NCBI GenBank assembly: GCA_947478845.1 | Contig: CANJXC010000005.1 | Coordinates: forward strand, 80,246-144,245 | Direction: 5' to 3' | DNA from: Spirochaetales bacterium | GTDB taxonomy: Bacteria; Spirochaetota; Spirochaetia; JABEVK01 | DNA length: 64,000 nt | Shown here: one piece after another, positions 22,774 through 63,079 of the stretch | Numbering within the stretch: position 1 is the first letter of the stretch | How the letters are laid out: each line of letters starts with the position of its first letter | The notes under the pieces: model-generated | Told to the model about the DNA's origin: nothing | The model's input: the letters and a program-made list of their open reading frames with translations, nothing else | The model's database searches: none | Program-made: the position numbers and the translations under genes

Positions 22774-23229
22774 ATGATCCTTGATTCTCTGGAATCCAGT
22801 TCCCGCTACGACGCATTTGGACCACGTTTTGCGCATGCCTTTGCTTGGCTGAAATCGATTGACCCCGCTTCGATGCCCAACGGCAAGGTAGAGATCGATG
22901 GTGAAAACCTCTATGCCCTTGTGATGCGTGATCATGGTAAGCCCCTGGCCGAAGCGAAGTGGGAAGCCCATGAAAAGTACGCCGATATCCAGTATGTGGC
23001 TGCAGGCACCGAGGAGATGCGCTGGTGTGCGCTCAACCTCTCCTTCCCGGGTGAGTACCAGCCCGAAAAAGATTTCGTTCCCATCGAAACCGACGTTTGG
23101 ACCTCCATCGAAGTGATCGAAGGCCAATTCGCCCTGTTCTTCCCCCAAGACGCTCACCGCCCGAGCATACTCGTAGACGGGGCGCCTGCGGTAACCAAAG
23201 TGGTGGTCAAAGTCAGACTGGATGCTTGA
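22774..23229 (+). CDS. YhcH/YjgK/YiaL-family protein (DUF386, beta-galactosidase beta-subunit-like; sugar-catabolism associated)
   Basis: 151 aa. Family-typical regions ...GENLYALVMRD...YADIQYV... A strong AGGAGG RBS is present. Confidence 0.75.
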   Translation: MILDSLESSSRYDAFGPRFAHAFAWLKSIDPASMPNGKVEIDGENLYALVMRDHGKPLAEAKWEAHEKYADIQYVAAGTEEMRWCALNLSFPGEYQPEKDFVPIETDVWTSIEVIEGQFALFFPQDAHRPSILVDGAPAVTKVVVKVRLDA

Positions 23230-23977
23230 GACCCTCTCTACACGCGAGAAGCTCCTGCTGGAAATCCTCACCGAGAGCCCGAACTGCACCGTTACTGAAC
23301 TGGGAAAACGACTTTCGGTTTCAGAAGTGACCATACGGTCTGACCTCAAGGGACTGGCAGGCAAAGGTCTGATTGTGCGCACCCACGGAGGCGCGCGGCC
23401 CGCTTATCACAAGAGCATCGTAGAACGCCAAAGCTTCCGCACCGAGGAAAAAAACCGCATTGCCAAAGCTGCTGCCGACCTGGTGAGCGATGGCGACACC
23501 GTGATGATTGTAGCCGGCACCACCACCGCGCTGGTGGCAAAATATTTGCTGGGCAAGGGCCATGTGCATATTGTCACCGACTCGACCTTGGTGTTGCCTT
23601 ATGTTCGCTCCAACCCTTCGCTTCAGTTGACAATCGTGGGCGGCGAGTTCCGAAGCGCCAATGAATCTTTTGTGGGCCCGCTCGCTCTCGACACGATTCG
23701 CAGGTTCAACGTCAGGCTGGCGTTTCTGGGCACCGACGGCTTCACCCTTGAGAAGGGGCTTACCACTCACTTGGTGGAAGGCGCAGAAATGGTAAAAACC
23801 ATGGCCGAACAGGCCGAAAAACGCGTCTTGGTGGTTGACTCTTCGAAGTTCGGACGCTCGGGCTTTGTGTCCATCATGCCACTCAAAAGGATAGACACCC
23901 TCATCAGCGATACAGACTTTCCCGCCGATCAGGCAGCCCTACTGACCGATTTGGGCATCGACGTCCACCTAGTTTGA
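23222..23977 (+). CDS. DeoR/GlpR-family transcriptional regulator
   Basis: N-terminal HTH (REKLLLEILTESPNCTVTELGKRLSVSEVTIRSDL) and a C-terminal sugar-phosphate-binding domain. Confidence 0.9.
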   Translation: MLETLSTREKLLLEILTESPNCTVTELGKRLSVSEVTIRSDLKGLAGKGLIVRTHGGARPAYHKSIVERQSFRTEEKNRIAKAAADLVSDGDTVMIVAGTTTALVAKYLLGKGHVHIVTDSTLVLPYVRSNPSLQLTIVGGEFRSANESFVGPLALDTIRRFNVRLAFLGTDGFTLEKGLTTHLVEGAEMVKTMAEQAEKRVLVVDSSKFGRSGFVSIMPLKRIDTLISDTDFPADQAALLTDLGIDVHLV

Positions 23978-24053
23978 CACAGTACCGCTGATTTTTCCTT
24001 CCATGGGAAAACTTTCACTTGCGTAACTAGTTTAACAGGTATATCGTAAGTTA

Positions 24054-24070
24054 TTCGAAACGATTTCGAA
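24054..24070 (+). promoter_or_regulatory. inverted repeat TTCGAAA-cga-TTTCGAA upstream of the E2 gene
   Basis: 7-bp perfect arms with a 3-nt spacer. It lies 18 nt before the RBS/ATG of the 2-oxoacid dehydrogenase genes. Confidence 0.35.
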
Positions 24071-24087
24071 AGACAAAGAGGAAGCTC

Positions 24088-25446
24088 ATGGCCGAAACCC
24101 TTGTGATGCCCCGTCAGGGCAATTCCGTTGAGTCATGCGTACTGATCAAATGGCGAGTCAAAGAAGGCGACGAGGTCGAACCAAAGACCGTGGTCGCCGA
24201 CGTTGAAACCGATAAAGCGGCCTTCGAGGTCGAAGCCGGCTTCGCCGGCACGGTGCTCAAGCTCCTGTGTCGCGACGGCGACGACATACCAGTCATGCAG
24301 CCCATCGCCTACGTTGGTAAGGCTGGTGAGGCTCTTCCTGCGCAGGCCGCCTCGAGTGCGCCGGCCCTGGAAGGATCCTCCCGGTCAAGTGAGACTTCCA
24401 TACCCGCGGCCCAACCCGTTGTGGACGTTGCAGCGCCGCACGGAAGGGGAGCTTCTTTCGCCTCTCCAAGAGCGCGCCATCTGGCAACCAGTCAGGGACT
24501 AGACGCCACTTTGCTTGCCGGCACGGGCCCCGAGGGCCGGGTCGTCGAGCGTGATGTGCGAGCTGTCCTCGACGCCAAGGCCCCGGCCACGAAGGCAGCC
24601 CTCGAAGCGGCCCTCGCCGCTGGCGTGAACTTGCCTGCCCGCGGCAGCGGCCTCGGTGGCCGCGTTGTTGCCACCGATGTCACCGGGGTATCGACGACCA
24701 CTGCGACCGTTACCGGCCCAGTTCCTGCTATTGCTCGTTCACAGGGCTCTGGAACCCGAGTCGAAACCAAGATCAAGGGCATCCGCAAGGTGATCGCCGA
24801 CCGCATGGCCGAAAGCCTGTCCACCACAGCCCAGTTCACGCTTAACTCCTCGGCCTCAGCCGTCCGTTTGCAGGAACTTCGCGCCCGGTTCAAAGCCAGC
24901 GAAGCCGATCTTGGGGTGCAGGGCATCACCATCGGCGATCTCATCGTTTACGCCACGGCCCGCACCTTGAAGCGCTTTGGACACATGAACGCACACAAAG
25001 TGGGAGACACCATCATCGAGTTTGGCGACGTGCATATGGGAGTGGCCTGCGATACCCCTCGTGGCCTCATGGTCCCCGTCATCCGCCATGCCGACAGCCT
25101 GAGCCTCAAGCAGATCAGCGACGAGACCAAGCGGCTGGCCGAAGCGTGCCGCAACAGCAGCGTGAAGCCCGATGAGCTTTCAGGGAGCACGTTCAGCATC
25201 AGCAATGTTGGTGCGTTTGGCATAGAAAGCTTTACGCCGGTACTCAACGTGCCCGAAGTGGCCATTTTGGGTGTTTGTGGCATTAACCTCAAGGCCGTCC
25301 AGGGCAAAAGCGGTGTCGAGTTTGTTCCTTTCATAGGTCTGTCGCTCACCATCAACCACATGGTGGTGGACGGAGCCCCGGCAGCAAAGTTTCTGGGGGC
25401 GCTCTGCGATGCCATCGCCGAAGTCGACCTGTTGCTGGCCGTTTAG
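24088..25446 (+). CDS. dihydrolipoamide acyltransferase (E2) of a 2-oxoacid/acetoin dehydrogenase complex
   Basis: Lipoyl domain with ETDKA. Ala/Pro linker and E3-binding domain. The catalytic region has NHMVVDGA. Confidence 0.9.
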   Translation: MAETLVMPRQGNSVESCVLIKWRVKEGDEVEPKTVVADVETDKAAFEVEAGFAGTVLKLLCRDGDDIPVMQPIAYVGKAGEALPAQAASSAPALEGSSRSSETSIPAAQPVVDVAAPHGRGASFASPRARHLATSQGLDATLLAGTGPEGRVVERDVRAVLDAKAPATKAALEAALAAGVNLPARGSGLGGRVVATDVTGVSTTTATVTGPVPAIARSQGSGTRVETKIKGIRKVIADRMAESLSTTAQFTLNSSASAVRLQELRARFKASEADLGVQGITIGDLIVYATARTLKRFGHMNAHKVGDTIIEFGDVHMGVACDTPRGLMVPVIRHADSLSLKQISDETKRLAEACRNSSVKPDELSGSTFSISNVGAFGIESFTPVLNVPEVAILGVCGINLKAVQGKSGVEFVPFIGLSLTINHMVVDGAPAAKFLGALCDAIAEVDLLLAV

Positions 25447-25454
25447 GAGTATCG

Positions 25455-26837
25455 ATGTACGATATCATCATTGTTGGCGGCGGCCCGGGTGGCTATGTTG
25501 CCGCCGAAAGAGCCGGAGCCCGTGGCTTAAAAGTGCTCCTCATTGAGAAAGAGTTCCTGGGCGGCACCTGCCTCAACTGGGGTTGCATTCCCACAAAAAC
25601 GCTGCTGAACTCCGCCAAAACCTACGCCCATGCGTTGCATGGAGAACGCTTTGGCCTCCATGCCGAAAAAGTGATTATGAACTGGGCAGAGGCGCTTGCC
25701 TGGAAAGCTGAGGTGGTCACCAAATTGCGCGGTGGCGTTGCCTTCCTCATGAAGAAGTTTGGGGTAGAAGTGGTCAACGGCACCGCCGAGCTTGTTGACA
25801 GGAATACCGTGCGAACAGTCGAGGGACAGACCTACCAGGGAAGAAACCTCATTATCGCCACCGGGAGCTCGCCCGCCATGCCCCCCCTGCCCGGCACCAA
25901 AGACAACCCCAAAGTGGTCAGCAGCACCAGTTTGCTCGACCTCAAAGAAGTTCCCAACCGCCTTGTGGTCATTGGTGGTGGCGTCATAGGCGTTGAGTTT
26001 GCCAGCCTGTTTGCCACCCTGGGAAGCAAGGTTACGGTGGTCGAGATGATGGACGAGATTATCCCGTTCATGGACAAGGAACAGGCACCCCAGTTTCGTA
26101 AAGCCTTGTCCAGCGTCCCGCACTCTGGCCTGCTGGACGCCAATATCGACTTCCAACTTGGCTGCAAGGTGGAAAAGCTCGAGGGAGGCACAGTTCAGTA
26201 CACCGGGAAAGACGGAGCCAAGAGCGTCACCGGCGACGTGGTGCTGATGGCTGTCGGACGCACCCTGAATGTGAAGGGCTTGGGTCTTGAGGCGCTCGGA
26301 GTGGACTTCGGCCCCAAAGGTATCGTCGTGAACGAGTACCAGCAGACCAACCTTCCGGGTGTGTACGCTGTTGGCGATGTCACGGGCCGCAGCCTCTTGG
26401 CTCACTCGGCCAGCCGCATGGGCGAAGTTGCCGTCAGTGCCATTATCGACGAGCCCCACAAACGCCAGCGGATGCGCTACCACGCCATTCCGTGGGTGGT
26501 GTACAGCAATCCTGAGGCCGCCGGCGTGGGCCTCACCGAAGATGAGGCCAAAAAACAGGGAAAGAACGTGGTGACGGCCACGGTTGCGTTGCGCAACATG
26601 GGTCGATATCTGGCCGAAAATGGCCCCACGGGTCCCGGCGCCACCAAAGTGATCGTCGACAAAGACACAGACCGAATTCTAGGTATCCACATGTACGGCG
26701 CCGGAGTTGGCGAGATGATCTGGGGCGGCGCGGCCCTCATCGAATTGGAGCTGCGGGTTCACGAGGCCCGTGAACTCATTTTCCCTCACCCCACGACCGG
26801 CGAGTCCATCCGAGACGCCCTCTGGGAACTTCACTAA
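25455..26837 (+). CDS. lpdA: dihydrolipoyl dehydrogenase (E3)
   Basis: GGGPGGY FAD motif and redox CLNWGCIPTK. Confidence 0.95.
   Translation: MYDIIIVGGGPGGYVAAERAGARGLKVLLIEKEFLGGTCLNWGCIPTKTLLNSAKTYAHALHGERFGLHAEKVIMNWAEALAWKAEVVTKLRGGVAFLMKKFGVEVVNGTAELVDRNTVRTVEGQTYQGRNLIIATGSSPAMPPLPGTKDNPKVVSSTSLLDLKEVPNRLVVIGGGVIGVEFASLFATLGSKVTVVEMMDEIIPFMDKEQAPQFRKALSSVPHSGLLDANIDFQLGCKVEKLEGGTVQYTGKDGAKSVTGDVVLMAVGRTLNVKGLGLEALGVDFGPKGIVVNEYQQTNLPGVYAVGDVTGRSLLAHSASRMGEVAVSAIIDEPHKRQRMRYHAIPWVVYSNPEAAGVGLTEDEAKKQGKNVVTATVALRNMGRYLAENGPTGPGATKVIVDKDTDRILGIHMYGAGVGEMIWGGAALIELELRVHEARELIFPHPTTGESIRDALWELH
25823..25833 (+). repeat. dispersed word, copy 5 (11/12: GGGACAGACCTa) in lpdA, sense
   Basis: Encodes E-G-Q-T-Y. 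Confidence 0.8.
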
Positions 26838-26860
26838 GCATAGGAAACAGGAGATAGAAG

Positions 26861-29317
26861 ATGCCCAAAGCCCTTACCGTTGACCCCAAAGTTGTCCGCC
26901 AGCCCGGAGTTCTCAAGACGAAGGACATCCCGCTGAACCAGTATAAAGGCGATATCCAAGTCGAGCTGAAAAAGTACGGCAAGGACAAGCTGGTGCGGAT
27001 CTTCCACACCATGGCCACTATTCGCGAGTTCGAGTCGATGCTCAACCTCGTCAAAACCCAGGGAGGATACAAAGGGGTAGACTACAACCACCGCGGCCCG
27101 GCCCACCTTTCCGCCGGGCAGGAGGCCAGCTCCACGGGTCAGTCTTTCGCCCTCGATGTGCAAGACTTCACCTTTGGCAGCCACCGCAGCCACGGCGAGA
27201 TCATCTCGAAGTGCTTTGCCGCGGTATCCCAATTGCCCGACGAAGAGCTTCTCAAGGTGATGAAAGCTTTCTGGGGTGGTGAAACCCTGAAAGTAGCCGA
27301 AAAGGCCGGAGCCAACAGCACCAAGGAACTGGCCGACGACTTCGTGTTGTACGGTGCCCTTGCCGAAATCTTTGCCAAGTCCCCCGGCTTCCACCGTGGT
27401 TTGGGCGGCTCGATGCATGCCTTTTTCGCACCTTTTGGCATGATGCCCAACAATGCACTGGTGGGTGGTTCGGCCGACATCGCCACAGGCGCCGCTCTCT
27501 TCAAGCGCATCAACGGCAAACCCGGCATTGTTGTGAGCAACGTCGGCGATGCCGCCATGGGTTGTGGCCCGGTGTGGGAGGCGATGATGTTCGCTGGAAT
27601 GGAACAGTACCGCACCCTTTGGGGCAAAGACGCTGGCGGTGCGCCGCCCATCCTTTTTAACTTCTTCAACAATTTTTACGGCATGGGGGGACAGACCTCG
27701 GGCGAAACCATGCCCTACCAAATCCTAGCCCGCGTCGGTGCCGGTGTGAACGCTGCGGCCATGCATGCCGAGCGTGTCGACGGCTACAACCCGCTGGCGG
27801 TGCTTGATGCGGTGGAACGCAAAAAAAAGATTCTCTTGGCCGGCGAGGGCCCGGTTCTCTTGGACACCATTACCTACCGCCTCAGCGGCCACTCACCCTC
27901 CGATGCCTCGAGTTACCGCACCAAAGAAGAGATAGAGCTCTGGGAAAATGCTGACTGCGTCAAGAGTTACGGCGAGTACCTAGTCAACGGTGGCGTCTTG
28001 AAAGCCAATGAGGTGGAGACCATCCGCGCGGGCATTGGAGCCAAGATGGACAGCATCTACAAGCTTGCCATCGACATGAACGAGTCTCCGCGCATCCAAG
28101 GCGCCTACATCGAAACGGTGATGTTCAGCAACCAAAAGGTCGACAAGCTCGAAGACCGCAAGCCGGAAACTCTTTTGCTCCGTGGCGAGGATCCCCGCAG
28201 CGTTTCGCTGAAAACCAAGGCACGCTACGCTCTCGACGCCGAGGGAAAGCCACTTCCCAAGGCCAAGATATTCGCCTACCGCGACGGCCTGTTTGAAGCC
28301 ATGCTGCACCGGTTTTATGAGGATCCGACCATGGCAGCCTGGGGCGAAGAAAACCGCGACTGGGGTGGCGCGTTTGCCGTTTACCGCGGCCTCACCGAAG
28401 CACTGCCCTACAAGCGACTGTTCAACAGCCCCATCAGCGAAGGCGCCATCGTGGGCTCGGGTGTAGGCTATGCTCTGGCCGGTGGGCGCGCGGTGGTAGA
28501 ACTGATGTATTGCGACTTCATGGGCCGCGCAGGTGACGAGATTTTCAACCAAATGGCCAAATGGCAGGCGATGTCGGCCGGCCAACTTCGCATGCCGCTG
28601 GTACTTCGCGTCTCGGTGGGAGCCAAGTACGGAGCCCAACACAGCCAGGACTGGAGCGCACTAGTAGCTCACATTCCTGGGCTCAAGGCTTACTTCCCCG
28701 CCACGCCTACCGACGCCAAGGGCATGCTTAACCTCGCTCTGCGGGGTACCGACCCTGTGGTCTTCTTTGAAAGTCAGAGCCTCTACGACGTGGGTGAGCT
28801 CTTCGAAAAAGCCGGTGTACCGGAAGGCTTCTATGAGACTGCCGAAGGTGAACCCGTTGTACGCCAAACTGGCAAAGACCTCACCATCGCCACTCTGGGA
28901 GCTACCCTCTATAAGGCCGTCGACACGGCAAAAGTTCTCAAAGACAAATATGGCCTGGAAGCCGAGATCATCGACCTGCGTTTCATCAGCCCGTTGAAGT
29001 ACGACGTTCTTCTGGATTCAGTGAAGAAAACGGGTAAACTCCTTCTGGCAAGCGACGCGGTCGAACGGGGCAATTTCCTCCACACTGTCGCTTCTACGGT
29101 GACCCAAGTGGCCTTCGATTACCTTGACGCTCCAGTTGCCGTCGTGGGAAGCCGCAACTTCATTACTCCTGCAGCTGAGATGGAGGAAGAGTTTTTCCCG
29201 CAACGAGAATGGCTTCTCGATACCATCCACGAACGGATTCTCCCGTTGAACGGACACACTCCAACTACGGTTCAAACCTCGGGAGAAATTCTTCGCCGCA
29301 ACCGGTTGGGAGTTTAG
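26861..29317 (+). CDS. fused E1 component (alpha+beta subunits in one 818-aa polypeptide) of a thiamine-diphosphate dependent 2-oxoacid/acetoin dehydrogenase
   Basis: The N-terminal half carries the TPP-binding alpha-subunit region (GGSMHAF...). The C-terminal half is a transketolase-like beta subunit. Fused E1 alpha/beta genes are annotated in other bacteria (for example Bacteroidetes). Confidence 0.85.
27688..27699 (+). repeat. dispersed word GGGACAGACCTC, copy 6 in E1 gene, sense
   Basis: Exact 12/12. Encodes G-G-Q-T-S. Confidence 0.9.
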
Positions 29318-29321
29318 CCCT

Positions 29322-30671
29322 GTGAGCCGACGCGACCGCGTCAACGACGCCCAACTAACGCCGGCTGAGCGACTTCAAGCCTTGCGAGAGCTGGTGAAAG
29401 CGGGACAAGTCCGCCGCGAGAGCGCCCTCTCCGGGGGTGAGGTGAACAACCATGTTCATACCATTTATAGCTTTAGTCCCTATACGCCTTCGATGGCCGT
29501 ACTGAAAGCCTTCGAGGCCGGCCTAGACGCCGTCGGATCGGTAGATCATGACTCGGTGGGAGCAGCCCGAGAAACCCTCGAAGCAGGGAAGGTTCTAGGC
29601 ATCGCTACCACAGTAGGTTGTGAAGTCAGGGTTTCCTTTGCCAAGACGCCTTTTGAGCACCGCAAAATCAATTACCCCGAGTGTCTGGGCAAAGCCTATA
29701 TGGTGTTCCACGGCCTTCCTGAGCGTAGTCTGGACGCCGTGGAAGCTTTCCTAAAGCCCTTACGGGAAGTAAGGGTGGAAAGAACCCGGGCGATGACCAT
29801 CAGGCTGTCAGAGGTTTTCGTGTCAGCCGGGCTGCCTTCGGTGCACTTCGAACGCGATGTGGCTTCGATTACCCAGCTTCATCAAGGTGGCGGGGTCACC
29901 GAAAGACACCTCTGCGCCGCTGCTGCCAAGGTTCTCCGGGGCCACGCGGGCAACGGGAAGGGTGTGGTGACCCTACTTCAGGACAACCTCGGCTTTACTG
30001 TAACCCCGGAAGTTGCCAAACGGCTCGGTGATGAAGCCAATCCCCACGCCCTTTACGATTTGGTCGGATTCCTTAAGACCACCTTGCTCGAGCAGGTGTT
30101 TTTGCAGCCTTCCGATCTCGAATGCCCTCCCGTGCGCGAGGTGGTGGCCTTTGCTCGCTCGGTGGGAGCCTTGCCTTCCTACGCCTACCTAGGAGACGTG
30201 GGTGAATCACCTACGGGAGACAAAAAATCCGAGTTCTTCGAGGATGCTTATCTGGCCGATTTATTGGCTGCCCTGGGAGAGCTTGGTTTTCAGGCCGTAA
30301 CTTATATGCCACCACGAAACTCGCTGGCCCAGCTCAAGCGCGTCCAAGAGCTCTGTGCGAGTCACGGACTGATGGAGATTTCCGGGGTCGACATCAACAG
30401 TTCGCGTCAGAGCTTTCATTGTCCGGAGGTGCTGTTACCAGAGTTTCGCCACCTGAACCAAAGCACGTGGGCTCTCATCGCTCACGAGAAATTAACTAAC
30501 CGCGAAGCCAGCTTGGGTCTCTTCGACCCCAGAAACCCGGGCTCGAGACTCCCGCTGACTCAACGTCTCGAGGCCTACGCCCAGGTGGGCAGAGCGATGG
30601 ATGCCCGCCAACCCCAGAATCTCCGCACACCGGAGTTTCCAGACCAACTTGCCAGGAGCCCTCGTGTCTGA
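29322..30671 (+). CDS. PHP-domain metal-dependent phosphoesterase with C-terminal extension
   Basis: NNHVHTIYS...SVDHDS PHP motifs. A GTG start lies 4 nt after the E1 stop, so it is operonic. Confidence 0.7.
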   Translation: MSRRDRVNDAQLTPAERLQALRELVKAGQVRRESALSGGEVNNHVHTIYSFSPYTPSMAVLKAFEAGLDAVGSVDHDSVGAARETLEAGKVLGIATTVGCEVRVSFAKTPFEHRKINYPECLGKAYMVFHGLPERSLDAVEAFLKPLREVRVERTRAMTIRLSEVFVSAGLPSVHFERDVASITQLHQGGGVTERHLCAAAAKVLRGHAGNGKGVVTLLQDNLGFTVTPEVAKRLGDEANPHALYDLVGFLKTTLLEQVFLQPSDLECPPVREVVAFARSVGALPSYAYLGDVGESPTGDKKSEFFEDAYLADLLAALGELGFQAVTYMPPRNSLAQLKRVQELCASHGLMEISGVDINSSRQSFHCPEVLLPEFRHLNQSTWALIAHEKLTNREASLGLFDPRNPGSRLPLTQRLEAYAQVGRAMDARQPQNLRTPEFPDQLARSPRV

Positions 30672-31749
30672 CACCGCTTTCCTTGTGGCACCGCGAATCC
30701 GTGGGCTGGCCTCGTGCTCGGGTCACCGTGTGCGTGTGCGCTTTGAGGACTTGACCATTCGCCCCACCAAAGGAACTGTGCTCAATCTAAAGTCGCCCGA
30801 CGAGCTAGAGTCCACATGGAAACAAGCAGTCACCTCTAGCCAGTTGCCCTCAGCGGTTTTCGTCGATGGTGTGGGCTGTTTTTTTCTCACGGTTTCGGGA
30901 CCTTCAAGGCCCAGCCGCCGCGACGAGGTGATTGCGGGCAAAGTTGCCGTTGTCACCGGCGGTGCTCAAGGCTTCGGTGAGGAAATCGCCCGCGGTTTGG
31001 TGGCCAACGGAGGCTTTGTGGCAGTGGCCGACCTCAACCTTGCGGGGGCGAACAAACTCGTCGAAAGCCTCAATGCCGCCGCTGGCAAACCTGTTGCCAT
31101 GGCCGTGGCCGTGAACATTGCCGACGAGGCCTCCGTGGAGGCCATGGTCAAGGAGGTCACTCTGGCCGTGGGTGGCATAGACCTTTTCGTGGCCAACGCA
31201 GGGGTGCTCAAAGCCAGTCCTGTGGTCGACCAAGACCTCAAGTCCTTCGAGTTTGTTACCGCCGTCAATTACACCGGCTACATGCTTTGCGTCAAACACG
31301 CCGCCAGGGTCATGCGCGAGCAGACCCAGTTCGACCCAAGCAGTTGGACCGATATCATTCAGATCAATTCCAAATCGGGACTAGAGGGCTCCAACAAGAA
31401 TGGCAGCTATGCGGGAAGCAAGTTTGGTGGCATCGGTCTTACACAGAGCTTTGCCCTCGAGCTAGTGGCCTACCACATCAAGGTCAATGCAATCTGCCCG
31501 GGCAATTTCTTCGACGGGCCTTTGTGGTCAGACCCCGAAAAAGGTCTGTTCGCCCAGTACCTGCACACCGGCAAAGTACCCGGCGCCAAGAGCCTGGCCG
31601 ATGTGAAGACCTTCTACGAAGCCAAGGTGCCCATGAACCGGGGTTGTACCGGGGCCGATGTTCTCAAAGCCCTGCTTTACATTTGTGACCAAGCCTATGA
31701 AACCGGCCAAGCAGTCCCTGTTACTGGTGGCCAAACCATGCTGAACTAA
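30664..31749 (+). CDS. SDR-family dehydrogenase, sorbitol-6-phosphate 2-dehydrogenase (SrlD/GutD)-like, with about 100-aa N-terminal extension
   Basis: The C-terminal half aligns closely with E. coli SrlD (IIQINSKSG..SKFGG.GLTQS.ALEL...KVP.KRGC...VTGGQ). Rossmann motif VAVVTGGAQGFG. There is no ATG before the Rossmann fold, so the start is an upstream GTG (30664 or later). Confidence 0.75.
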   Translation: MSDTAFLVAPRIRGLASCSGHRVRVRFEDLTIRPTKGTVLNLKSPDELESTWKQAVTSSQLPSAVFVDGVGCFFLTVSGPSRPSRRDEVIAGKVAVVTGGAQGFGEEIARGLVANGGFVAVADLNLAGANKLVESLNAAAGKPVAMAVAVNIADEASVEAMVKEVTLAVGGIDLFVANAGVLKASPVVDQDLKSFEFVTAVNYTGYMLCVKHAARVMREQTQFDPSSWTDIIQINSKSGLEGSNKNGSYAGSKFGGIGLTQSFALELVAYHIKVNAICPGNFFDGPLWSDPEKGLFAQYLHTGKVPGAKSLADVKTFYEAKVPMNRGCTGADVLKALLYICDQAYETGQAVPVTGGQTMLN

Positions 31750-31778
31750 GAGGCCGATATCGAGCACAAGGAGTTACT

Positions 31779-33041
31779 ATGAAAACTAAGGCGGTGCGCC
31801 TCCATGGTGTCAATGATTTGCGACTCGAGGAGTTTGAACTCCCAGCGATCAAGGAGGATGAGATTCTGGCCAAGGTTGTGTCCGACTCCCTGTGCATGTC
31901 GAGCTACAAGCTGGCCAAACAGGGCGACAAGCACAAGCGGGTCCGCTACGATCTGAAAAAACACCCGATCATCCTCGGACACGAGTTCTGCGGCGAGCTC
32001 ATCGAAGTGGGAAAAAAATGGTCGAAGAAGTTCAAGGTGGGAGACCACTTCAGTATACAGCCTGCGTTGAACAAAGACGGCACTCCGTGGGCGCCTGGAT
32101 ACAGCTATGAGCATATCGGTGGCGATAGCCAATATGTGGTTATTCCCTCCGAAGTGATGGAACTCGACTGCCTTCTTCCGTACCCCAGCGACGTCTTTTT
32201 CATGGGCTCCTTGAGCGAGCCGGTCAGTTGTGTGATCGGCGCCTTTAACGCCAACTACCACAGCAAACCCGGAAGTTACGTGCATGAAATGGGCATTGTC
32301 GAAGGGGGAGCCACCGTCTTGGTGGCCGGCATCGGCCCCATGGGTCTCGGAGCCATTGACTACGCCCTGCACGGCCCCCGACGCCCACGCCGCCTCATCG
32401 TGACGGGAACCAAGGAAGAGCGGCTTAACCGCGCTCGCAGCCTGCTCACGGTGGAGGATGCCCGAGCCCACGGCGTTGACTTGCATTACGTGAATACCAC
32501 AGAACACACCGACCCGGTGGCTGCTCTGAAGGCGCTCAACGAGGGTAAACTCTTCGACGACGTCTTTGTCTTCGCCCCGGCTCGTGACCTTGTCGAGTTC
32601 GGCGCCCAACTTTTGGGCCGTGATGGCTGTTTGAACTTCTTTGCTGGCCCCAGCGATACGGCGTTCAGCGCAACCTTCAACTTTTATGGGGTCCACTATG
32701 AGGGCCATCATGTGGCTGCCAATTCCGGTGGAAACAACGACGACCTGCACCAGGCACTTGAGTTGATGATGCGCGGCCAACTCAACCCGGCCATCATGGT
32801 CACGCACGTGGGCGGCCTCAACGCCGTCGTGCAGACCACCCTCGAGTTAGACAAGATCCCCGGTGGCAAAAAGCTCATGTACGTGCAAAAGAATCTGGAA
32901 CTGGTCGCGATTGCGGAGTTTGCGCAGCACGGCAAGACGAATCAATTCTACGCAAAATTGGCTGAAATCTGCGCGCGGCACAATCAGCTCTGGAACGGCG
33001 AGGCCGAGAAGTATCTGTTGGCACACGCGCCTTTGATTTAG
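31779..33041 (+). CDS. zinc-containing medium-chain dehydrogenase, L-sorbose-1-phosphate reductase (SorE)-like
   Basis: 420 aa. Zn ligand region GHEFCGELIEVG. Good RBS. Confidence 0.8.
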   Translation: MKTKAVRLHGVNDLRLEEFELPAIKEDEILAKVVSDSLCMSSYKLAKQGDKHKRVRYDLKKHPIILGHEFCGELIEVGKKWSKKFKVGDHFSIQPALNKDGTPWAPGYSYEHIGGDSQYVVIPSEVMELDCLLPYPSDVFFMGSLSEPVSCVIGAFNANYHSKPGSYVHEMGIVEGGATVLVAGIGPMGLGAIDYALHGPRRPRRLIVTGTKEERLNRARSLLTVEDARAHGVDLHYVNTTEHTDPVAALKALNEGKLFDDVFVFAPARDLVEFGAQLLGRDGCLNFFAGPSDTAFSATFNFYGVHYEGHHVAANSGGNNDDLHQALELMMRGQLNPAIMVTHVGGLNAVVQTTLELDKIPGGKKLMYVQKNLELVAIAEFAQHGKTNQFYAKLAEICARHNQLWNGEAEKYLLAHAPLI

Positions 33042-33125
33042 CAGAGATGGGGCCTAGCTGAGCGACCTCATTTTCGTGGCCTCGGTAAGGCCGCACTCAA
33101 ACATTTGACGAGAAAGGAGAACCAA

Positions 33126-33794
33126 ATGATCTACATGGCCGACACTGCGAATCTCGAGGAACTACGATCACTTTTCCATCACTTCCCACTCGAGGGCGTG
33201 ACCACCAACCCCACCATCTTGTCGAAAGGTGGACTACAGCTCTCGAAGGCGGTGCCAGCCATTCTCGAAATCGTCGGTAACAAGATGATGCACATGCAGA
33301 TGATCAGTGACAGCGCCGAGGACATATTGGCTGAGGCACAAAGCTACCGCAAGCGCTTTTCACTGGGTGACAACTACTACGTGAAGATACCGGTCACCCG
33401 GGAAGGCTTCCGAGCCATACAGATGGTGAAGCGTGCCGGAATGAAAGTGACCGCTACTGCTATTTTCACCCAACAACAGGCGCTCATCGCCGCCAAAGCC
33501 GGAGCGGATTACGTGGCCCCATATGTGAACCGCCTCGACAACATTGTCAGCCACGGCATCGAAGTGGTGAGCGACATTGTCAACACTTTCGCCCGCTACG
33601 GACTGGCCACCAAAGTCCTCGCCGCCAGCTTCAAAAACGTGGACCAGATTTACCGCGTCAGCATGGTGGGCTGCCATGCCGTCACCGCGTCGGCAGACGT
33701 GCTCAACGCCATGGTCAACCACCCCATGACCGACCTGGCCGTGGAAGATTTCAAGATCGACGGTGCTGCTTGGTACGACGTGGAACGGGTGTAG
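33126..33794 (+). CDS. fructose-6-phosphate aldolase / transaldolase-family (FSA/TalC-like) enzyme
   Basis: The GVTTNPT signature and an active-site Lys region are present. AAGGAGA RBS before ATG 33126. Confidence 0.85.
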   Translation: MIYMADTANLEELRSLFHHFPLEGVTTNPTILSKGGLQLSKAVPAILEIVGNKMMHMQMISDSAEDILAEAQSYRKRFSLGDNYYVKIPVTREGFRAIQMVKRAGMKVTATAIFTQQQALIAAKAGADYVAPYVNRLDNIVSHGIEVVSDIVNTFARYGLATKVLAASFKNVDQIYRVSMVGCHAVTASADVLNAMVNHPMTDLAVEDFKIDGAAWYDVERV

Positions 33795-35737: not shown

Positions 35738-35741
35738 GCCT

Positions 35742-58321: not shown

Positions 58322-59842
58322 TCATCCTCCATAATTGGCTGACCAGCTGAGAAAGGTTTCGGCAGCTAGTTCATGATTGGAGGGAACATAAAGGTTTACT
58401 TCAAAGGACTTTGCCACGGCTTGTCGTGCTTCTGCTATCGAACTGAAGGTCCCCAGGGCAACAAACTGGCAGGCAATATTTCCCAAAGCGGTGGTTTCAG
58501 CGGGACCGGTGAAAACCGGTCGGCCGCAGATGTCGGCGGTTAATTGGCAAAGCAAAAGGTTTTGCGCCCCTCCCCCGACAAGCCAGAGTTCGCCAAACTG
58601 TTTACCGGTTACCATTTCCATTTTCTCAAGGCTACTGCGGAACTCGCAGGCCAAGCTTTCGAGTACACAGCGGATTATGCCACCACGACCTTGCGGTAAC
58701 GGCATCTTCTTCTTGCGACAATACTCTTCTATTCGCCCCGGCATGTCGCCAGGAGTAGAGAACATCGGGTCTTTGACGTCGATGAGGCTGGCGCCCCAAG
58801 GGGCCCCGGTGGCCCATTCCACTAGGTCGCGGTGCTCCCATTTCTGACCGTCCCGCTCCCACCAGCGCTTGCACTCTTGCACCAGCCACATCCCCATGAT
58901 GTTGCTTAGAAGCAGGTTGGTTCCAAACGCACCGGCCTCGTTGGAGAATCCACCCAGACGAGCTTCCTCGCCCAACACCGGTGCATTTAGTTCCGTAGCC
59001 AGCAGGGCCCAGGTTCCGCAGCTGATGAACGCAAACGGTTTTCCCGAAGTGGAAGGAACCGCCAGTGCGGCGCTTTCAGTATCATGGCTGGGCACAAGCG
59101 CAACTTGGGTATCGGGGGACAGACCTACTTCTCTTGCCACCTCGGGAAGAAGAGGGCCAAGAAGTGTTCCCGGTTCAAGGACATTCTGCATCAAGTGAGG
59201 TGGAACCCCCAGTTTCTCAAGAATATCCTGGTCCCAATCGACCTGACCTGCCCTCAGCATTTGCGAGGTTCCCGCGATGGTTCTTTCCGCGGCTTTTCGC
59301 CCGGTTAGAAAATAATTGAGCAGGTCAGGGGAGAACAGCAACGTTTCGGCGCCTTGCAGAAAGTTTGGATCTGCTTCGAGAGCGCCACTAAGCTGCCCTG
59401 TGGTGTTGAACCAGAACTCCTGGACCCCGGTACGCCGAAAAAGGACTCCTTCGCCAAAACGGGCCGAAAGTTTGGAAACCTGTCCTTCGGTCCGTTTGTC
59501 CCGGTAATGAACGGGATTTCCCAGAAGCCTACCCTTCCGGTCCAACAGACCAAAGTCGACACCCCAGGTGTCGATACCTAGGCATCGGATGGTGTCGCCA
59601 GGGGGAAGGGTGCGAATCGCTTCGCGGATGCCTTTCTGTGTTTCGTGAAACAGGCGAAGGATGTCCCAATGCAAAGTTCCAACGACCTCTACAGGCTCGT
59701 TATCAAACCGATGAACCTCCTGAAGTTCCAGCTTTCCTGCAGCCAAGTTCCACGAACCTCGTATCACCCGACCACCGGAAGCGCCGAGGTCAATCGCGAG
59801 AACGTGGTCCACAGGGTTAGTACCTTCCGTAGAGCGGACCAT
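58322..59842 (-). CDS. rhaB: FGGY-family ketose kinase, rhamnulokinase (RhaB)-like (could act as L-fuculokinase)
   Basis: Motifs shared with E. coli RhaB ([39 protein letters not shown]). Start ATG 59842. Confidence 0.8.
59116..59126 (+). repeat. dispersed word, copy 13 (11/12: GGGACAGACCTa), antisense in kinase gene
   Basis: preceded by CGGGG. Confidence 0.8.
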
Positions 59843-61619: not shown

Positions 61620-61642
61620 GTCGTCTCCTTGATTGAAAAGTT

Positions 61643-62584
61643 TTATTGAAGGTCACTAAGACTTGGAATAGAAGGGATTCCCCCCCTCTTAGTGGTCGAG
61701 GCCGAGCCGGACTTCACACCAAACGCTGCCAAGGCGGCGGCTTCAGCGGGGAGAACCTCAGAGGGGGCCTTGCCCAACGCCAGAAGGGAATGCAGGACCC
61801 CAGCCATGAAGCAGTCGCCGGCTCCTGTGGTATCCACGACTTTTACGGGCGCCGGGCTCTGCCGACCCCACTCCCCGCCACATTTCCAAAGACAACCCTG
61901 AGGCCCGAGAGTGACGAAAAACAGAGGAGCCGGAAACTTTTGGTGGAGGCGCTTAGCTTGCGCAAACGGGTCACCTGCCGGCTCGTCCAACGCAAAGGCC
62001 ACTTCCTCTTCGCTGATTTTCACAATGTCTGCGAGGGACAGACCTCCCTGGATGGCCCGCCGGGCTTCTGCCGGATTTTCCCAGAGCCGAGGTCGGTAGT
62101 TGGGGTCGAAACTAATGGTCACGCCGGCTACTTGATGTGATTTCGCTGAAGCCAGGTTGTTGGCAAATCCCACCGACTCGCACATCGAAACTGTACTGAA
62201 ATGAAAAATCTGCGGCAAATGGGAAGCGTCGGCAAGAGCTACCGGAAGGCCCGCACAACTTGTTCCCTGCCACAGGAAATCAAAACTGCGGTCTCCGTGG
62301 GCATCGAGTGAGACGATAGCCATGGTGGTTGGAGGAAAATCGCTCGTCAGGCGAGAGGTATCGACTTTGCCGTCCTCTAGGGTTTTTCTCAGGAGGCTGC
62401 CAAGGGCATCAGCACCTACGCGGCCTGAGAAACTGACGCGGTGGTCCCATCGCCCGAGAGCAACAGCGAGGTTGGCGACACCCCCACCGGGAAGCGCCTC
62501 GTAAGCCGGGAAACCCATGGGTCCGGGACCGTGCTGTGAAAGGTCTATGAGTACCTCACCGTGGGCCAGCACTTCAGGGTTCAT
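61643..62584 (-). CDS. PfkB-family sugar kinase (fructokinase-like)
   Basis: [15 protein letters not shown] and [12 protein letters not shown] motifs. Overlaps the fucU stop. Confidence 0.8.
62045..62056 (+). repeat. dispersed word GGGACAGACCTC, copy 15, antisense in PfkB kinase gene
   Basis: exact 12/12. Confidence 0.9.
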
Positions 62585-63012: not shown

Positions 63013-63035
63013 AGCTGAATCTCCTCTTGAGGGAA

Positions 63036-63049
63036 TGTAATCGTTTACA
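63036..63049 (+). promoter_or_regulatory. LacI/CcpA-family operator-like pseudo-palindrome TGTAATCGTTTACA
   Basis: Fits TGnAAnCGnTTnCA. Lies 24 nt upstream of the fucU ATG and downstream of the LacI-family gene. Confidence 0.5.
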
Positions 63050-63079
63050 GAACCACACTAGACCCAGTGGGCAATTCTG

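What the first reader, a model, noticed from the sequence alone, without database searches (positions are those of the whole stretch)
22774..33794. 11-kb co-directional cluster linking a 2-oxoacid/acetoin-type dehydrogenase complex to polyol-phosphate dehydrogenases, a PHP phosphoesterase and an F6P-aldolase homologue
Gene order is YhcH-family, DeoR regulator, E2, E3, fused E1 alpha-beta, PHP-domain protein, SrlD-like SDR, SorE-like Zn-dehydrogenase, FSA/transaldolase-family enzyme. Spacers are short or overlapping, as expected for an operon. Sorbitol-6-P dehydrogenase and sorbose-1-P reductase homologues normally accompany a sorbose or glucitol PTS, but no PTS is present. A TPP-dependent E1/E2/E3 complex in this setting suggests acetoin-type C-C cleavage of a ketose or deoxyketose into an aldehyde plus an acyl-CoA. 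I do not recognise this combination as a described pathway.
Basis: partly seen in the sequence, partly recalled or inferred. Interest (0 to 1): 0.7.

Follow-up and report, generated by a model that had tools for sequence, protein, structure and literature searches.

The report
Deoxy-sugar operon with lipoamide dehydrogenase complex
A seven-gene operon found in hundreds of spirochaete species joins a pyruvate-dehydrogenase-like enzyme complex to two sugar dehydrogenases and an unknown metal hydrolase; it lies among rhamnose and fucose genes, which points to an undescribed route from the methyl end of these sugars to acetyl-CoA.

Summary
The gene content and tight co-directional packing are confirmed. 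The conserved core is DeoR-E2-E3-fused E1αβ-PHP-SDR-MDR (window 23222-33041). The PHP marker occurs in at least 496 species genomes, nearly all Spirochaetota. YhcH and the FSA aldolase are lineage-specific add-ons.

The SDR is closest to sorbitol-6-P dehydrogenase. In one relative it is fused to a class II aldolase, the architecture of RhaEW. The MDR is a polyol-dehydrogenase-type Zn enzyme, with no test supporting SorE. No PTS is needed: 34 of 82 related loci carry L-rhamnose or L-fucose genes within 10 kb, and the window has a fucI-kinase-fucU locus 25 kb away.

A candidate DeoR operator sits in front of the operon in the window and in 20 related loci. Lipoate ligase or synthase genes accompany the cluster in several relatives.

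The fused E1αβ belongs to a distinct subfamily. Its roughly 50%-identical relatives in Rhizobium and Agrobacterium pair with an acetoin-system-type E2, sugar kinases and SorC regulators.

Best reading (0.45): a 6-deoxyhexose catabolic operon whose complex cleaves an oxidised deoxyketose phosphate to acetyl-CoA. Main rival (0.22): a dedicated pyruvate dehydrogenase. I found no description of it in the literature searched.

The parts
22774..23229 (+). YhcH/YjgK/YiaL (DUF386) protein. An accessory gene of this lineage whose stop overlaps the DeoR start by 8 nt.
   Evidence: Pfam DUF386 142 bits. Below the NanQ equivalog cut-off. No homologue near the cluster in 82 related loci.
23222..23977 (+). 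DeoR-family regulator, the first gene of the conserved core.
   Evidence: HTH_DeoR and DeoRC domains. No NCBIfam equivalog is reached; the best is AgaR at 178 against 260. Present at the head of the cluster in 43 loci.
24043..24070 (.). Candidate DeoR operator. Two overlapping sites 11 bp apart of the near-palindrome TTCGAAAG-N2-TTTCGAA, ending 17 nt before the E2 ATG.
   Evidence: Unique in the window, with 0 matches in 100 shuffles. The same motif lies 7-70 nt upstream of DeoR in 19 other loci and upstream of E2 in L004. Of 49 sites scoring at least 13 bits in 1.4 Mb, 37 are at these promoters.
24088..25446 (+). E2 dihydrolipoyl acyltransferase: lipoyl domain, E3-binding domain and catalytic domain.
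   Evidence: Pfam. Lipoyl-lysine motif DKA at residues 42-44 and catalytic motif NHMVVDG. Below every NCBIfam E2 equivalog cut-off.
25455..26837 (+). E3 dihydrolipoyl dehydrogenase.
   Evidence: TIGR01350 484 bits against a cut-off of 409. Redox-disulfide motif CLNWGC.
26861..29317 (+). Fused E1 α-β thiamine-diphosphate component, 818 aa, a member of a distinct subfamily.
   Evidence: E1_dh, Transket_pyr and Transketolase_C domains. The GDA..NN ThDP motif and the [10 protein letters not shown] loop are kept. About 70% identical across spirochaete genera. 49.5-52.6% identical over about 800 aa to Rhizobium, Agrobacterium and Pleomorphomonas fused E1αβ; the α half is no more than 32% identical to any other plasmid-borne E1. 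Below the PDH equivalog cut-offs.
29322..30671 (+). PHP-fold metal-dependent hydrolase of unknown substrate, the marker gene of the cluster.
   Evidence: Pfam PHP 23 bits, below the cut-off of 26.4. AF2 model with pLDDT 91. Foldseek finds 3o0f, 2yb1 and RNase AM at probability 1.0, TM 0.7 and 17-19% identity, with a helical insert at residues 134-260. The HxH, DHD, E and H motifs are invariant, and the last DxH motif is DxN. 2955 homologues found.
30664..31749 (+). SDR dehydrogenase with a roughly 90-aa N-terminal extension. Its start overlaps the PHP stop by 8 nt.
   Evidence: Best PDB match is sorbitol-6-P dehydrogenase 5o3z at 175 bits, with the next at 100. NCBIfam S6PDH 238 against a cut-off of 307. 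56% identical to the SDR half of an Aldolase_II::SDR fusion in L079.
31779..33041 (+). Zn-dependent MDR dehydrogenase of the polyol-dehydrogenase type, 420 aa, last gene of the conserved core.
   Evidence: ADH_N and ADH_zinc_N domains. The catalytic Cys39, His68, Glu69 and Glu147, a GxGxxG motif and a VVTD motif (NAD type) are invariant; there is no structural-Zn lobe. Weak matches to ketose reductase, sorbitol dehydrogenase, butanediol dehydrogenase and threonine dehydrogenase.
33105..33794 (+). FSA/TalC-type class I aldolase, a lineage-specific accessory gene.
   Evidence: TAL_FSA 172 bits. TIGR00875 203 against 246. Found next to the cluster only in L004, the closest relative.
58322..63976 (-). 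Probable feeder locus for L-fucose: LacI regulator, FucU mutarotase, PfkB kinase, FucI isomerase and an FGGY kinase. It contains no aldolase.
   Evidence: FucI 1060 bits against a cut-off of 775. FucU 168 against 141. FGGY kinase scores 417 on the rhamnulokinase model against 528. No class II aldolase among the window ORFs scanned.

Best explanation
This is the conserved core of a Spirochaetota operon for catabolism of 6-deoxyhexoses (L-rhamnose and L-fucose).

A DeoR repressor binds TTCGAAAG-N2-TTTCGAA arrays at the operon head. By analogy with FucR and RhaR it probably senses a deoxyketose-1-phosphate. It controls E2-E3-E1αβ-PHP-SDR-MDR.

Isomerase and FGGY kinase make L-rhamnulose-1-P or L-fuculose-1-P. 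These genes sit beside the operon in relatives; here FucI and a kinase lie 25 kb away.

The polyol-dehydrogenase-type MDR, which is distantly similar to threonine and butanediol dehydrogenases acting on CH3-CHOH- ends, and the sorbitol-6-P-dehydrogenase-like SDR oxidise the sugar phosphate. This turns its methyl-bearing end into an α-hydroxy methyl ketone (or α-diketone).

The thiamine-diphosphate E1αβ then cleaves that ketone as acetoin dehydrogenase cleaves acetoin. It loads an acetyl group on the lipoyl-E2, which releases acetyl-CoA, and E3 returns the electrons to NAD+.

The remaining phosphorylated C4/C3 fragment is taken to DHAP-level metabolites. The PHP metal hydrolase does this and, where present, the RhaE-like class II aldolase-fold protein.

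Shown:
- gene families and cofactor motifs;
- operon packing;
- phylum-wide conservation;
- the link to rhamnose and fucose genes;
- the operator candidate;
- a distinct E1αβ subfamily with Aco-type partners elsewhere.

Inferred: every substrate, the order of steps, and the role of PHP.
For: 1. Core order. DeoR-E2-E3-E1αβ-PHP-SDR-MDR recurs in Leadbettera, Marispirochaeta and dozens of MAGs. Among 82 loci fetched around the PHP gene, many on truncated contigs, SDR is present in 72, E1αβ in 55 and MDR in 48. The genes stay adjacent when the order is inverted.

2. Rhamnose and fucose genes. 34 of 82 loci carry specific markers within 10 kb: RhaA (640 bits against a cut-off of 572) in 10, a rhamnulokinase-like kinase in 13, a RhaE-like class II aldolase in 14, FucU (173 against 141) in 12 and RhaM in 5. 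A divergent FGGY kinase sits between SDR and MDR in 28. The window has FucI, FucU and kinases, and no class II aldolase was found among the ORFs scanned.

3. Dehydrogenase types. The SDR is clearly closest to sorbitol-6-P dehydrogenase, a sugar-phosphate dehydrogenase. The MDR keeps a polyol-dehydrogenase catalytic Zn site.

4. E1αβ relatives. They are 49.5-52.6% identical over about 800 aa on Rhizobium, Agrobacterium and Pleomorphomonas plasmids. They sit beside a lipoyl carrier plus an α/β-hydrolase annotated as AcoC of the acetoin-cleaving system, with xylulokinase-like or PfkB kinases, SorC regulators, and in single clusters FucU, sugar ABC transporters or LipA. These bacteria are known to have an ordinary PDH (my own knowledge, not checked here), so pyruvate is an unlikely substrate there.

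5. Termite-gut spirochaetes of the same family use PFOR for pyruvate. Their rhamnose route is called non-conventional (PMC13067680).

6. LplA (322 bits against 280) in 9 loci and a LipA-like radical-SAM gene in L028 travel with the cluster, so lipoylation appears to serve this complex.

7. The operator candidate occurs at the operon head only.
Against: - No biochemical data exist for any member.
- E1, E2 and E3 look like a generic PDH/BCKDH-type complex. The spirochaete E2 is the classical type, not the AcoC type.
- The SDR is homologous to the SDR half of an aldolase::SDR fusion with the RhaEW architecture. RhaEW makes DHAP plus L-lactate (PMC3870299), from which pyruvate is the obvious next 2-oxoacid.
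- PHP-SDR-MDR occurs without E1/E2/E3 within 10 kb in L026, L030 and L079. E1/E2/E3 occurs without PHP-SDR-MDR in L084. The two halves can therefore work apart.
- Retaining C3 of L-rhamnulose or L-fuculose gives a tetrose or tetrulose phosphate of non-central configuration unless C1-C3 ends up as DHAP.
- The PHP role is unexplained.
- Rhamnose and fucose genes are not adjacent to the cluster in this window.
Confidence: 0.45

Rival explanations
1. Extended RhaEW-type pathway with a dedicated pyruvate dehydrogenase. A RhaE-like aldolase and the SDR convert the deoxyketose-1-P to DHAP plus L-lactate. The MDR oxidises the CH3-CHOH- unit (lactate or lactaldehyde) to pyruvate. E1αβ/E2/E3 is a true PDH complex giving acetyl-CoA plus CO2.
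For: - L079 has RhaB-RhaA-PHP-[Aldolase_II::SDR]-MDR. The SDR half is 56% identical to the window SDR.
- Stand-alone RhaE-like genes lie beside RhaA in 9 loci.
- RhaEW yields DHAP plus L-lactate in vitro. Lactate dehydrogenase genes join the rhamnose regulon in other phyla (PMC3870299).
- The E1 α half is closest to PDH E1α, and the ThDP and loop motifs are intact.
- The two sub-modules can be separated.
Against: - E1α, E1β and E2 are far below the PDH equivalog cut-offs: 160 against 394, 232 against 321 and 250 against 445.
- The roughly 50%-identical E1αβ relatives in aerobic Alphaproteobacteria pair with an AcoC-type E2 and sugar kinases.
- Related spirochaetes already use PFOR.
- As far as I know, no MDR has been shown to be a lactate dehydrogenase.
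- PHP has no role, because the only phosphate would leave as DHAP.
- The L079 fusion and the RhaE-like proteins are below all RhaEW cut-offs.
- Most loci and this window lack the aldolase.
Confidence: 0.22
2. The complex oxidatively decarboxylates a sugar-derived 2-oxoacid, for example a 2-keto-3-deoxy or 2-keto deoxy-aldonate made by the dehydrogenases and a PHP lactonase or hydrolase. The product is a deoxy-acyl-CoA.
For: - The fold and family are those of 2-oxoacid dehydrogenases.
- PHP is a relative of the amidohydrolase superfamily, which includes sugar lactonases (my own knowledge).
- Two dehydrogenases are present.
Against: - No dehydratase is present in the core.
- Kinases, isomerases and a class II aldolase point to the phosphorylated route.
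- The SDR resembles a sugar-phosphate dehydrogenase.
Confidence: 0.1
3. Acetoin and 2,3-butanediol utilisation. E1/E2/E3 is an AcoABCL-type system, and the SDR and MDR are the two classes of butanediol dehydrogenase.
For: SDR- and MDR-type butanediol dehydrogenases exist. Both proteins give weak hits to them: acetoin reductase 115 bits and (R,R)-butanediol dehydrogenase 32 bits.
Against: - The SDR scores twice as high on sorbitol-6-P dehydrogenase.
- A DeoR regulator, FGGY kinases, PHP, ABC sugar transporters and rhamnose and fucose genes accompany the cluster.
- No sigma-54 AcoR-type regulator is present.
Confidence: 0.05
4. Glucitol/sorbose-type hexitol-phosphate pathway (SrlD plus SorE) that merely lies next to a housekeeping 2-oxoacid dehydrogenase operon, with no functional link.
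For: S6PDH is the best SDR match.
Against: - The linkage is conserved across the phylum and through rearrangements, with translational coupling of E1-PHP-SDR.
- No PTS is present.
- The SDR is below the SrlD cut-off, and the MDR has no SorE or GatD signal: 23 bits on galactitol-1-P dehydrogenase.
Confidence: 0.04

Closest known systems
Acetoin dehydrogenase enzyme system (AcoA/AcoB/AcoC/AcoL)
   Same: A ThDP E1 of the α/β type, a lipoyl E2 and an E3. The proposed chemistry is the same: cleavage of an α-hydroxy methyl ketone into acetyl-CoA plus an aldehyde. The alphaproteobacterial relatives of this E1αβ sit beside an AcoC-type lipoyl/α/β-hydrolase E2.
   Different: E1 α and β are fused and carry a roughly 100-aa N-terminal extension. 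The spirochaete E2 is the classical 2-oxoacid_dh type. The regulator is DeoR, not AcoR. The context is sugar kinases and rhamnose and fucose genes, not butanediol genes. The substrate is unknown.
RhaEW-dependent L-rhamnose pathway (Rodionova et al. 2013, PMC3870299)
   Same: RhaA, a rhamnulokinase (or a divergent FGGY kinase), a class II aldolase-fold protein and an SDR that are fused in L079, and a DeoR-family regulator.
   Different: The SDR and aldolase are split in spirochaetes and score far below the RhaEW models. PHP, MDR and the lipoamide complex have no counterpart in the described pathway.
Pyruvate dehydrogenase complex with heterotetrameric-type E1 (Gram-positive/mitochondrial)
   Same: The domain set, the ThDP motif, the His-containing active-site loop, the lipoyl-lysine and the E3.
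   Different: All E1 and E2 equivalog cut-offs are missed. E1 is fused. The complex is embedded in a sugar operon, and related spirochaetes use PFOR.
L-sorbose/D-glucitol route (SorE ketose-1-P reductase plus SorD/SrlD hexitol-6-P dehydrogenase)
   Same: An MDR plus an SrlD-like SDR acting on hexose or hexitol phosphates. This offers a precedent for moving the keto group from C2 to C5. Applied to a 6-deoxyketose-1-P, the same shift would give a methyl ketone.
   Different: No PTS is present, the MDR is not detectably SorE-like, and the SDR is below the SrlD cut-off.
Lsr pathway end step (LsrF thiolase: phospho-diketopentose to DHAP plus acetyl-CoA); comparison from my own knowledge
   Same: A phosphorylated 1-deoxy-diketo sugar is split into acetyl-CoA and a triose phosphate, under a sugar-phosphate-sensing regulator (SorC type in the alphaproteobacterial clusters).
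   Different: LsrF is a cofactor-free class I aldolase-fold thiolase. No ThDP or lipoamide is involved, and there is no homology.

Membership tests
Pyruvate dehydrogenase complex (E1 α/β type) | E1α and E1β reach the curated PDH equivalog scores | tested here: not met
   TIGR03182 160 against 394; PRK09212 232 against 321; PRK11892 219 against 454.
Pyruvate dehydrogenase complex (E1 α/β type) | E2 reaches an acetyltransferase equivalog score | tested here: not met
   TIGR01349 250 against 445; PRK11854 238 against 722.
Pyruvate dehydrogenase complex (E1 α/β type) | Cofactor motifs: ThDP GDG..NN, lipoyl-lysine, E3 redox disulfide | tested here: met
   GDA...NN(FYGMG), DKA at residues 42-44 and CLNWGC. 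E3 TIGR01350 484 against 409.
Pyruvate dehydrogenase complex (E1 α/β type) | Pyruvate is the substrate | not testable with these tools
   Needs an enzyme assay.
Acetoin dehydrogenase system (AcoABCL) | AcoC-type E2 (lipoyl domain plus α/β-hydrolase) | tested here: not met
   The window E2 has a 2-oxoacid_dh catalytic domain, and only its lipoyl domain matches NF011457. The feature is met in the clusters of the alphaproteobacterial relatives.
Acetoin dehydrogenase system (AcoABCL) | Context of acetoin or butanediol genes and an AcoR regulator | tested here: not met
   DeoR regulator and a sugar-gene context.
RhaEW bifunctional rhamnulose-1-P aldolase/dehydrogenase | Class II aldolase domain fused to the SDR | tested here: not met
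   The window SDR has a non-homologous 90-aa N-terminal extension and no aldolase. The fusion exists in L079 only.
RhaEW bifunctional rhamnulose-1-P aldolase/dehydrogenase | Reaches the TIGR02632 or PRK08324 equivalog score | tested here: not met
   Window SDR 141 against 568. L079 fusion 223 against 568 and 232 against 931.
RhaEW bifunctional rhamnulose-1-P aldolase/dehydrogenase | Encoded within a rha locus (rhaA, rhaB or rhaK, rhaM) | tested here: inconclusive
   Met in many relatives. Not met in the window, where only a fucose locus lies 25 kb away.
Sorbitol-6-phosphate 2-dehydrogenase (SrlD) | Equivalog score and a glucitol PTS context | tested here: not met
   NF009050 238 against 307. 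No PTS gene among the window ORFs scanned or among the recurrent gene families of related loci. It remains the closest solved relative at 175 bits.
PHP-domain phosphoesterases | Pfam PHP gathering score | tested here: not met
   23.1 against 26.4, N-terminal 66 residues only.
PHP-domain phosphoesterases | PHP (β/α)7 barrel fold | tested here: met
   AF2 pLDDT 91. Foldseek probability 1.0 to 3o0f, 2yb1 and RNase AM, with target-normalised TM 0.69-0.74.
PHP-domain phosphoesterases | Full set of metal ligands (HxH ... E ... H ... DxH) | tested here: inconclusive
   H44/H46, D75-H76-D77, E101, H196 and D357 are invariant, but the last motif is D357-I-N359 rather than DxH.
Fructose-6-phosphate aldolase (FSA/TalC) | Equivalog score | tested here: not met
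   TIGR00875 203 against 246; PRK12656 198.5 against 214. The Pfam TAL_FSA domain is met.
L-sorbose-1-P reductase (SorE)/galactitol-1-P dehydrogenase-type MDR | Specific similarity to sugar-phosphate MDRs | tested here: not met
   GatD model 23 bits against 550. The best hit is IolM at 68 against 450. No SorE model or sequence was available for a direct comparison.

The most novel reading that the evidence does not exclude
The fused E1αβ subfamily, found in Spirochaetota and at about 50% identity in Rhizobium, Agrobacterium and Pleomorphomonas, is the catalytic heart of a previously unrecognised class of lipoamide-dependent, acetoin-dehydrogenase-like complexes. These complexes would cleave sugar-derived (deoxy)ketose phosphates. 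In spirochaetes this would define a new L-rhamnose/L-fucose pathway that bypasses lactaldehyde and 1,2-propanediol and conserves the methyl end as acetyl-CoA. The PHP protein would be a new kind of metal enzyme acting on the remaining phosphorylated fragment.
Probability: 0.35. Interest if true: 0.85.

Novelty: new variant of a known kind. Interest (0 to 1): 0.66.

Why it matters
[quoted passage not shown] In textbook anaerobic catabolism their methyl-bearing half is thrown away as 1,2-propanediol.

This operon is conserved in hundreds of spirochaete species from termite guts, animal guts, sediments and hypersaline mats. It attaches a lipoamide complex, unusual in anaerobes that use PFOR, to these pathways. 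That would change carbon, ATP and H2 budgets for these abundant fibre degraders.

It also flags three uncharacterised enzyme families: the fused E1αβ, the 450-aa PHP protein and the long MDR. They are ready for assay in cultured hosts (Leadbettera, Gracilinema, Treponema primitia, Rhizobium).

If the complex cleaves a sugar-derived acyloin, it would be the first such activity of a 2-oxoacid-dehydrogenase-type complex beyond acetoin.

Tried and rejected
- **Sorbose/glucitol reading.** Rejected: cut-offs are not met, there is no PTS, and there is no SorE or GatD signal.

- **'Second SDR' next to RhaA.** ORF clustering suggested a second SDR paralogue. Pfam showed these are class II aldolase-fold proteins, linked to the SDR cluster only through the L079 fusion.

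- **Keto-shift model** (MDR reduces C2, SDR oxidises C5, then cleavage to acetyl-CoA plus a tetrose-4-P). Kept only as a sub-variant. The stereochemistry gives D-threose-4-P or L-erythrose-4-P rather than E4P, and the aldolase-fold partner is then unexplained.

- **SDR N-terminal extension as a remnant of RhaE.** No similarity found.

- **Riboswitch or other RNA element in the 110-nt DeoR-E2 spacer.** No Rfam hit anywhere in the window.

- **Promoter and terminator consensus scans.** Not above chance.

- **PHP as a regulatory protein phosphatase for the E1 loop.** Considered unlikely. Its tightest partner is the SDR, there is no kinase, and PHP-SDR occurs apart from E1.

- **Literature searches** for the cluster in spirochaetes and in the rhizobial plasmid pRL8 returned nothing relevant.

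- **L004 insertion between DeoR and E2** (MBL-fold protein plus a Pol III fragment). It looks like an assembly or mobile-element oddity and was not pursued.

Full report
**Observation**

- YhcH/DUF386, 22774-23229.
- DeoR, 23222-23977.
- E2, 24088-25446.
- E3, 25455-26837. It is the only component that passes a curated equivalog cut-off (TIGR01350, 484 against 409).
- Fused E1αβ of 818 aa, 26861-29317.
- A 449-aa protein with a sub-threshold PHP match, 29322-30671.
- An SDR.
- A Zn-MDR, 31779-33041.
- An FSA/TalC-type aldolase, 33105-33794.

Alignment with homologues places the SDR start at the GTG at 30664. That start overlaps the PHP stop by 8 nt.

The spacers are -8, 110, 8, 23, 4, -8, 29 and 63 nt. 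Terminator-like hairpins are no more frequent than in shuffled sequence, and none falls in a gap.

The cofactor motifs are intact:

- E1 has the ThDP motif GDA..NN and the loop [10 protein letters not shown].
- E2 has the lipoyl motif DKA and the catalytic motif NHMVVDG.
- E3 has CLNWGC.

The co-directional run begins three genes earlier, at 19299. These genes encode a 441-aa protein with no detectable family, a luciferase-like monooxygenase and an OYE flavin reductase.

**What is conserved**

The E1αβ is about 70% identical across spirochaete genera, including Leadbettera, Treponema primitia, Gracilinema and Marispirochaeta.

The PHP-like protein has 2955 detectable homologues. A scan of one genome per GTDB species found relatives in at least 496 genomes, almost all labelled Spirochaetota.

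I ran tblastn with the window's proteins against 82 fetched loci, many on short contigs. All 82 loci were fetched around the PHP gene or next to it. The number of loci with each further gene was:

| Gene | Loci |
|---|---|
| SDR | 72 |
| E1αβ | 55 |
| E3 | 49 |
| MDR | 48 |
| E2 | 47 |
| DeoR | 43 |
| FSA | 1 |
| YhcH, the three upstream genes, the downstream TIM-barrel and MFS genes | 0 |

The order DeoR-E2-E3-E1αβ-PHP-SDR-MDR is seen from the E1 side as well. Where the order is inverted, the two halves stay adjacent.

L005, a relative with 87% E1 identity, ends the cluster at the MDR and has no YhcH. The conserved unit is therefore window 23222-33041. YhcH and FSA are local additions.

The two halves can be uncoupled. 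L026, L030 and L079 have PHP-SDR-MDR without E1/E2/E3 within 10 kb. L084 has DeoR/E2-E3-E1 alone.

**Context in relatives**

I clustered all ORFs of the loci and scanned representatives against the family libraries. The recurrent neighbours were:

- L-rhamnose isomerase (640 bits against a cut-off of 572) in 10 loci;
- a rhamnulokinase-like FGGY kinase in 13 loci;
- a second, divergent FGGY kinase inserted between SDR and MDR in 28 loci;
- 380-400-aa class II aldolase-fold proteins related to the N-terminal half of bifunctional aldolase/SDR enzymes in 14 loci;
- L-fucose mutarotase FucU (173 against 141) in 12 loci;
- RhaM in 5 loci;
- AraC regulators and sugar ABC transporters;
- HAD phosphatases in 7 loci;
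- lipoate-protein ligase (322 against 280) in 9 loci, and a LipA-like radical-SAM gene in L028.

Thirty-four of the 82 loci carry at least one specific rhamnose or fucose marker within 10 kb.

The window has an L-fucose locus at 58.3-64 kb on the minus strand. It comprises a LacI regulator, FucU, a PfkB kinase, FucI (1060 bits against 775) and an FGGY kinase. No class II aldolase turned up among the window ORFs scanned.

A 2026 genome study of termite-gut Breznakiellaceae notes that their rhamnose pathway looks non-conventional, and that pyruvate is oxidised by PFOR with a confurcating hydrogenase (PMC13067680). It does not mention this cluster.

**The individual enzymes**

*SDR.* Its best solved relative is sorbitol-6-P dehydrogenase at 175 bits, with the next at 100. 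It misses the SrlD cut-off, scoring 238 against 307.

In L079 the equivalent gene is a 653-aa Aldolase_II::SDR fusion lying between RhaB-RhaA-PHP and the MDR. Its SDR half is 56% identical to the window SDR. Its aldolase half is 37% identical to the stand-alone aldolase-fold proteins.

This is the architecture of RhaEW, which converts rhamnulose-1-P plus NAD+ to DHAP plus L-lactate (PMC3870299). All scores are far below the RhaEW cut-offs. That paper reports that no DHAP formed without NAD+, which may mean that oxidation precedes cleavage.

*MDR.* It keeps a polyol-dehydrogenase-type catalytic zinc site and an NAD-type Rossmann motif, and it lacks the structural-zinc lobe. Its only matches are weak: ketose reductase, sorbitol dehydrogenase, butanediol dehydrogenase, threonine dehydrogenase and IolM. 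'SorE-like' is therefore not supported.

*PHP protein.* It gives a confident model (pLDDT 91) with a true PHP barrel. The model is closest to the pAp phosphatase and RNase AM group at 17-19% identity, with a large helical insert. The last DxH metal motif is changed to DxN. Its substrate is unknown.

**Regulation**

A 17-bp near-palindrome, TTCGAAACGATTTCGAA, lies 34 nt upstream of the E2 ATG, with a weaker copy 11 bp upstream of it (24043-24070). It is unique in the window.

The same motif, often as two or three sites phased by 11 bp, lies 7-70 nt upstream of DeoR in 19 other loci and upstream of E2 in L004. Of 49 sites scoring at least 13 bits in 1.4 Mb, 37 are at these promoters.

I take it as the DeoR operator. 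It marks the head of the operon. No equivalent site precedes PHP, which agrees with a single transcription unit. No Rfam element is present.

**The E1αβ subfamily**

I searched the α half of E1 against annotated plasmids. Sixteen records matched at 46-50% identity, from Rhizobium, Agrobacterium and Pleomorphomonas. All other records were at 32% or below.

Full-length identity to the window protein is 49.5-52.6% over about 800 residues.

In R. johnstonii pRL8, A. tumefaciens pAt15955 and Pleomorphomonas pSM30-1, the gene is followed by a 78-aa lipoyl protein. Next comes an α/β-hydrolase, annotated in one record as AcoC of the acetoin-cleaving system, and then a SorC-type sugar-binding regulator. 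Xylulokinase-like or PfkB kinases lie within or near all three clusters. Individual clusters also carry other neighbours:

- an RbsD/FucU protein;
- a sugar-phosphate isomerase;
- sugar ABC transporters;
- LipA;
- a mannitol-dehydrogenase-family gene.

From my own knowledge, these aerobes have an ordinary PDH. That was not checked here. A second, plasmid-borne complex with an acetoin-type E2 inside a sugar locus is unlikely to be for pyruvate. I found no literature on these clusters either.

**Interpretation**

The supported statement is that this is a DeoR-controlled operon, conserved across Spirochaetota, that belongs to 6-deoxyhexose (rhamnose and fucose) catabolism. In it a lipoamide-dependent complex is dedicated to the pathway.

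Which bond the complex breaks is inferred. I favour an acetoin-type cleavage (0.45). In this reading the MDR, and possibly the SDR, oxidise the CH3-CHOH- end of the deoxyketose phosphate to a methyl ketone. E1αβ/E2/E3 convert that end to acetyl-CoA. The phosphorylated remainder goes to DHAP-level metabolites through PHP and, where present, the aldolase-fold protein.

The reasons are:

- the Aco-type partners of the orthologous E1αβ;
- the sugar-phosphate character of both dehydrogenases;
- the redundancy of a PDH in PFOR-using anaerobes;
- the co-localised lipoylation genes.

The main rival (0.22) is a RhaEW-like route to lactate and pyruvate followed by a dedicated PDH. It is favoured by the aldolase::SDR fusion and by the separability of the two halves. 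It leaves PHP, and arguably the MDR, without a role.

Minor rivals are a sugar-derived 2-oxoacid substrate, acetoin and butanediol utilisation, and a fortuitous neighbourhood. The last is contradicted by the conservation.

**Novelty**

All parts belong to known superfamilies, so this is a new variant of known kinds of system: deoxyhexose catabolism and acetoin/2-oxoacid dehydrogenase complexes. It is not categorically new.

However, the combination, the fused E1αβ subfamily, the PHP family and the long MDR are uncharacterised and very widespread. The hypothesis is directly testable in cultured organisms.

Noticed in passing
window 19299-22735 (+): Three further co-directional, tightly packed genes lie upstream of YhcH: a 441-aa protein with no Pfam or PDB match, a luciferase-like monooxygenase and an OYE-type NADH:flavin oxidoreductase. 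None accompanies the cluster in 82 related loci.
   Followed up: partly
window 33829-34511 (-): A PIN-domain toxin gene with a small upstream ORF (VapBC-like pair) lies directly after the FSA gene. The closest relative, L004, also has a PIN gene beside FSA (L004:13925-14356).
   Followed up: no
window 34559-39721: A separate sugar locus: a PfkB-like kinase and a xylose-isomerase-like TIM barrel (minus strand), then a mannitol-dehydrogenase-family gene and an MFS transporter (plus strand). The gene families echo those around the E1αβ relatives in Rhizobium and Agrobacterium, but no orthology was detected.
   Followed up: partly
window 53286-56636 (-): Pectin/uronate lower pathway: KduD, KduI, KDG kinase and Eda aldolase, all above or near their equivalog cut-offs.
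   Followed up: no
window 58322-63976 (-): An L-fucose locus (LacI, FucU, PfkB kinase, FucI, FGGY kinase) that contains two kinases and no FucA-type aldolase.
   Followed up: partly
L007, L011, L026, L030 (downstream of MDR/RhaB/HAD): A transketolase gene directly follows the SDR-MDR(-kinase-HAD) block in four loci. This hints that an aldose or ketose phosphate is produced by the pathway.
   Followed up: no
window 30664-30930 and homologues (alignment A2): The cluster's SDRs carry a poorly conserved 90-140-aa N-terminal extension with an 'AP-IRGL' motif. It is not homologous to RhaE. It may be a docking segment, since PHP and SDR are translationally coupled.
   Followed up: partly
PMC3870299 (RhaEW paper): RhaEW formed no DHAP without NAD+. 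This suggests that the SDR domain may oxidise rhamnulose-1-P before C-C cleavage rather than oxidising free lactaldehyde.
   Followed up: no
L004:650-3507: In the closest relative, about 4 kb encoding an MBL-fold protein and a DNA Pol III α fragment is inserted between a DeoR gene fragment and the E2 operon. It could be a MAG assembly artefact or a mobile insertion.
   Followed up: no
L086 (R. johnstonii pRL8 81899-94445), L087, L088: An uncharacterised alphaproteobacterial cluster: fused E1αβ, a 78-aa lipoyl protein, an AcoC-like α/β-hydrolase, a sugar kinase and a SorC regulator. In pRL8 it lies about 7 kb from the homoserine dehydrogenase gene pRL80071.
   Followed up: partly
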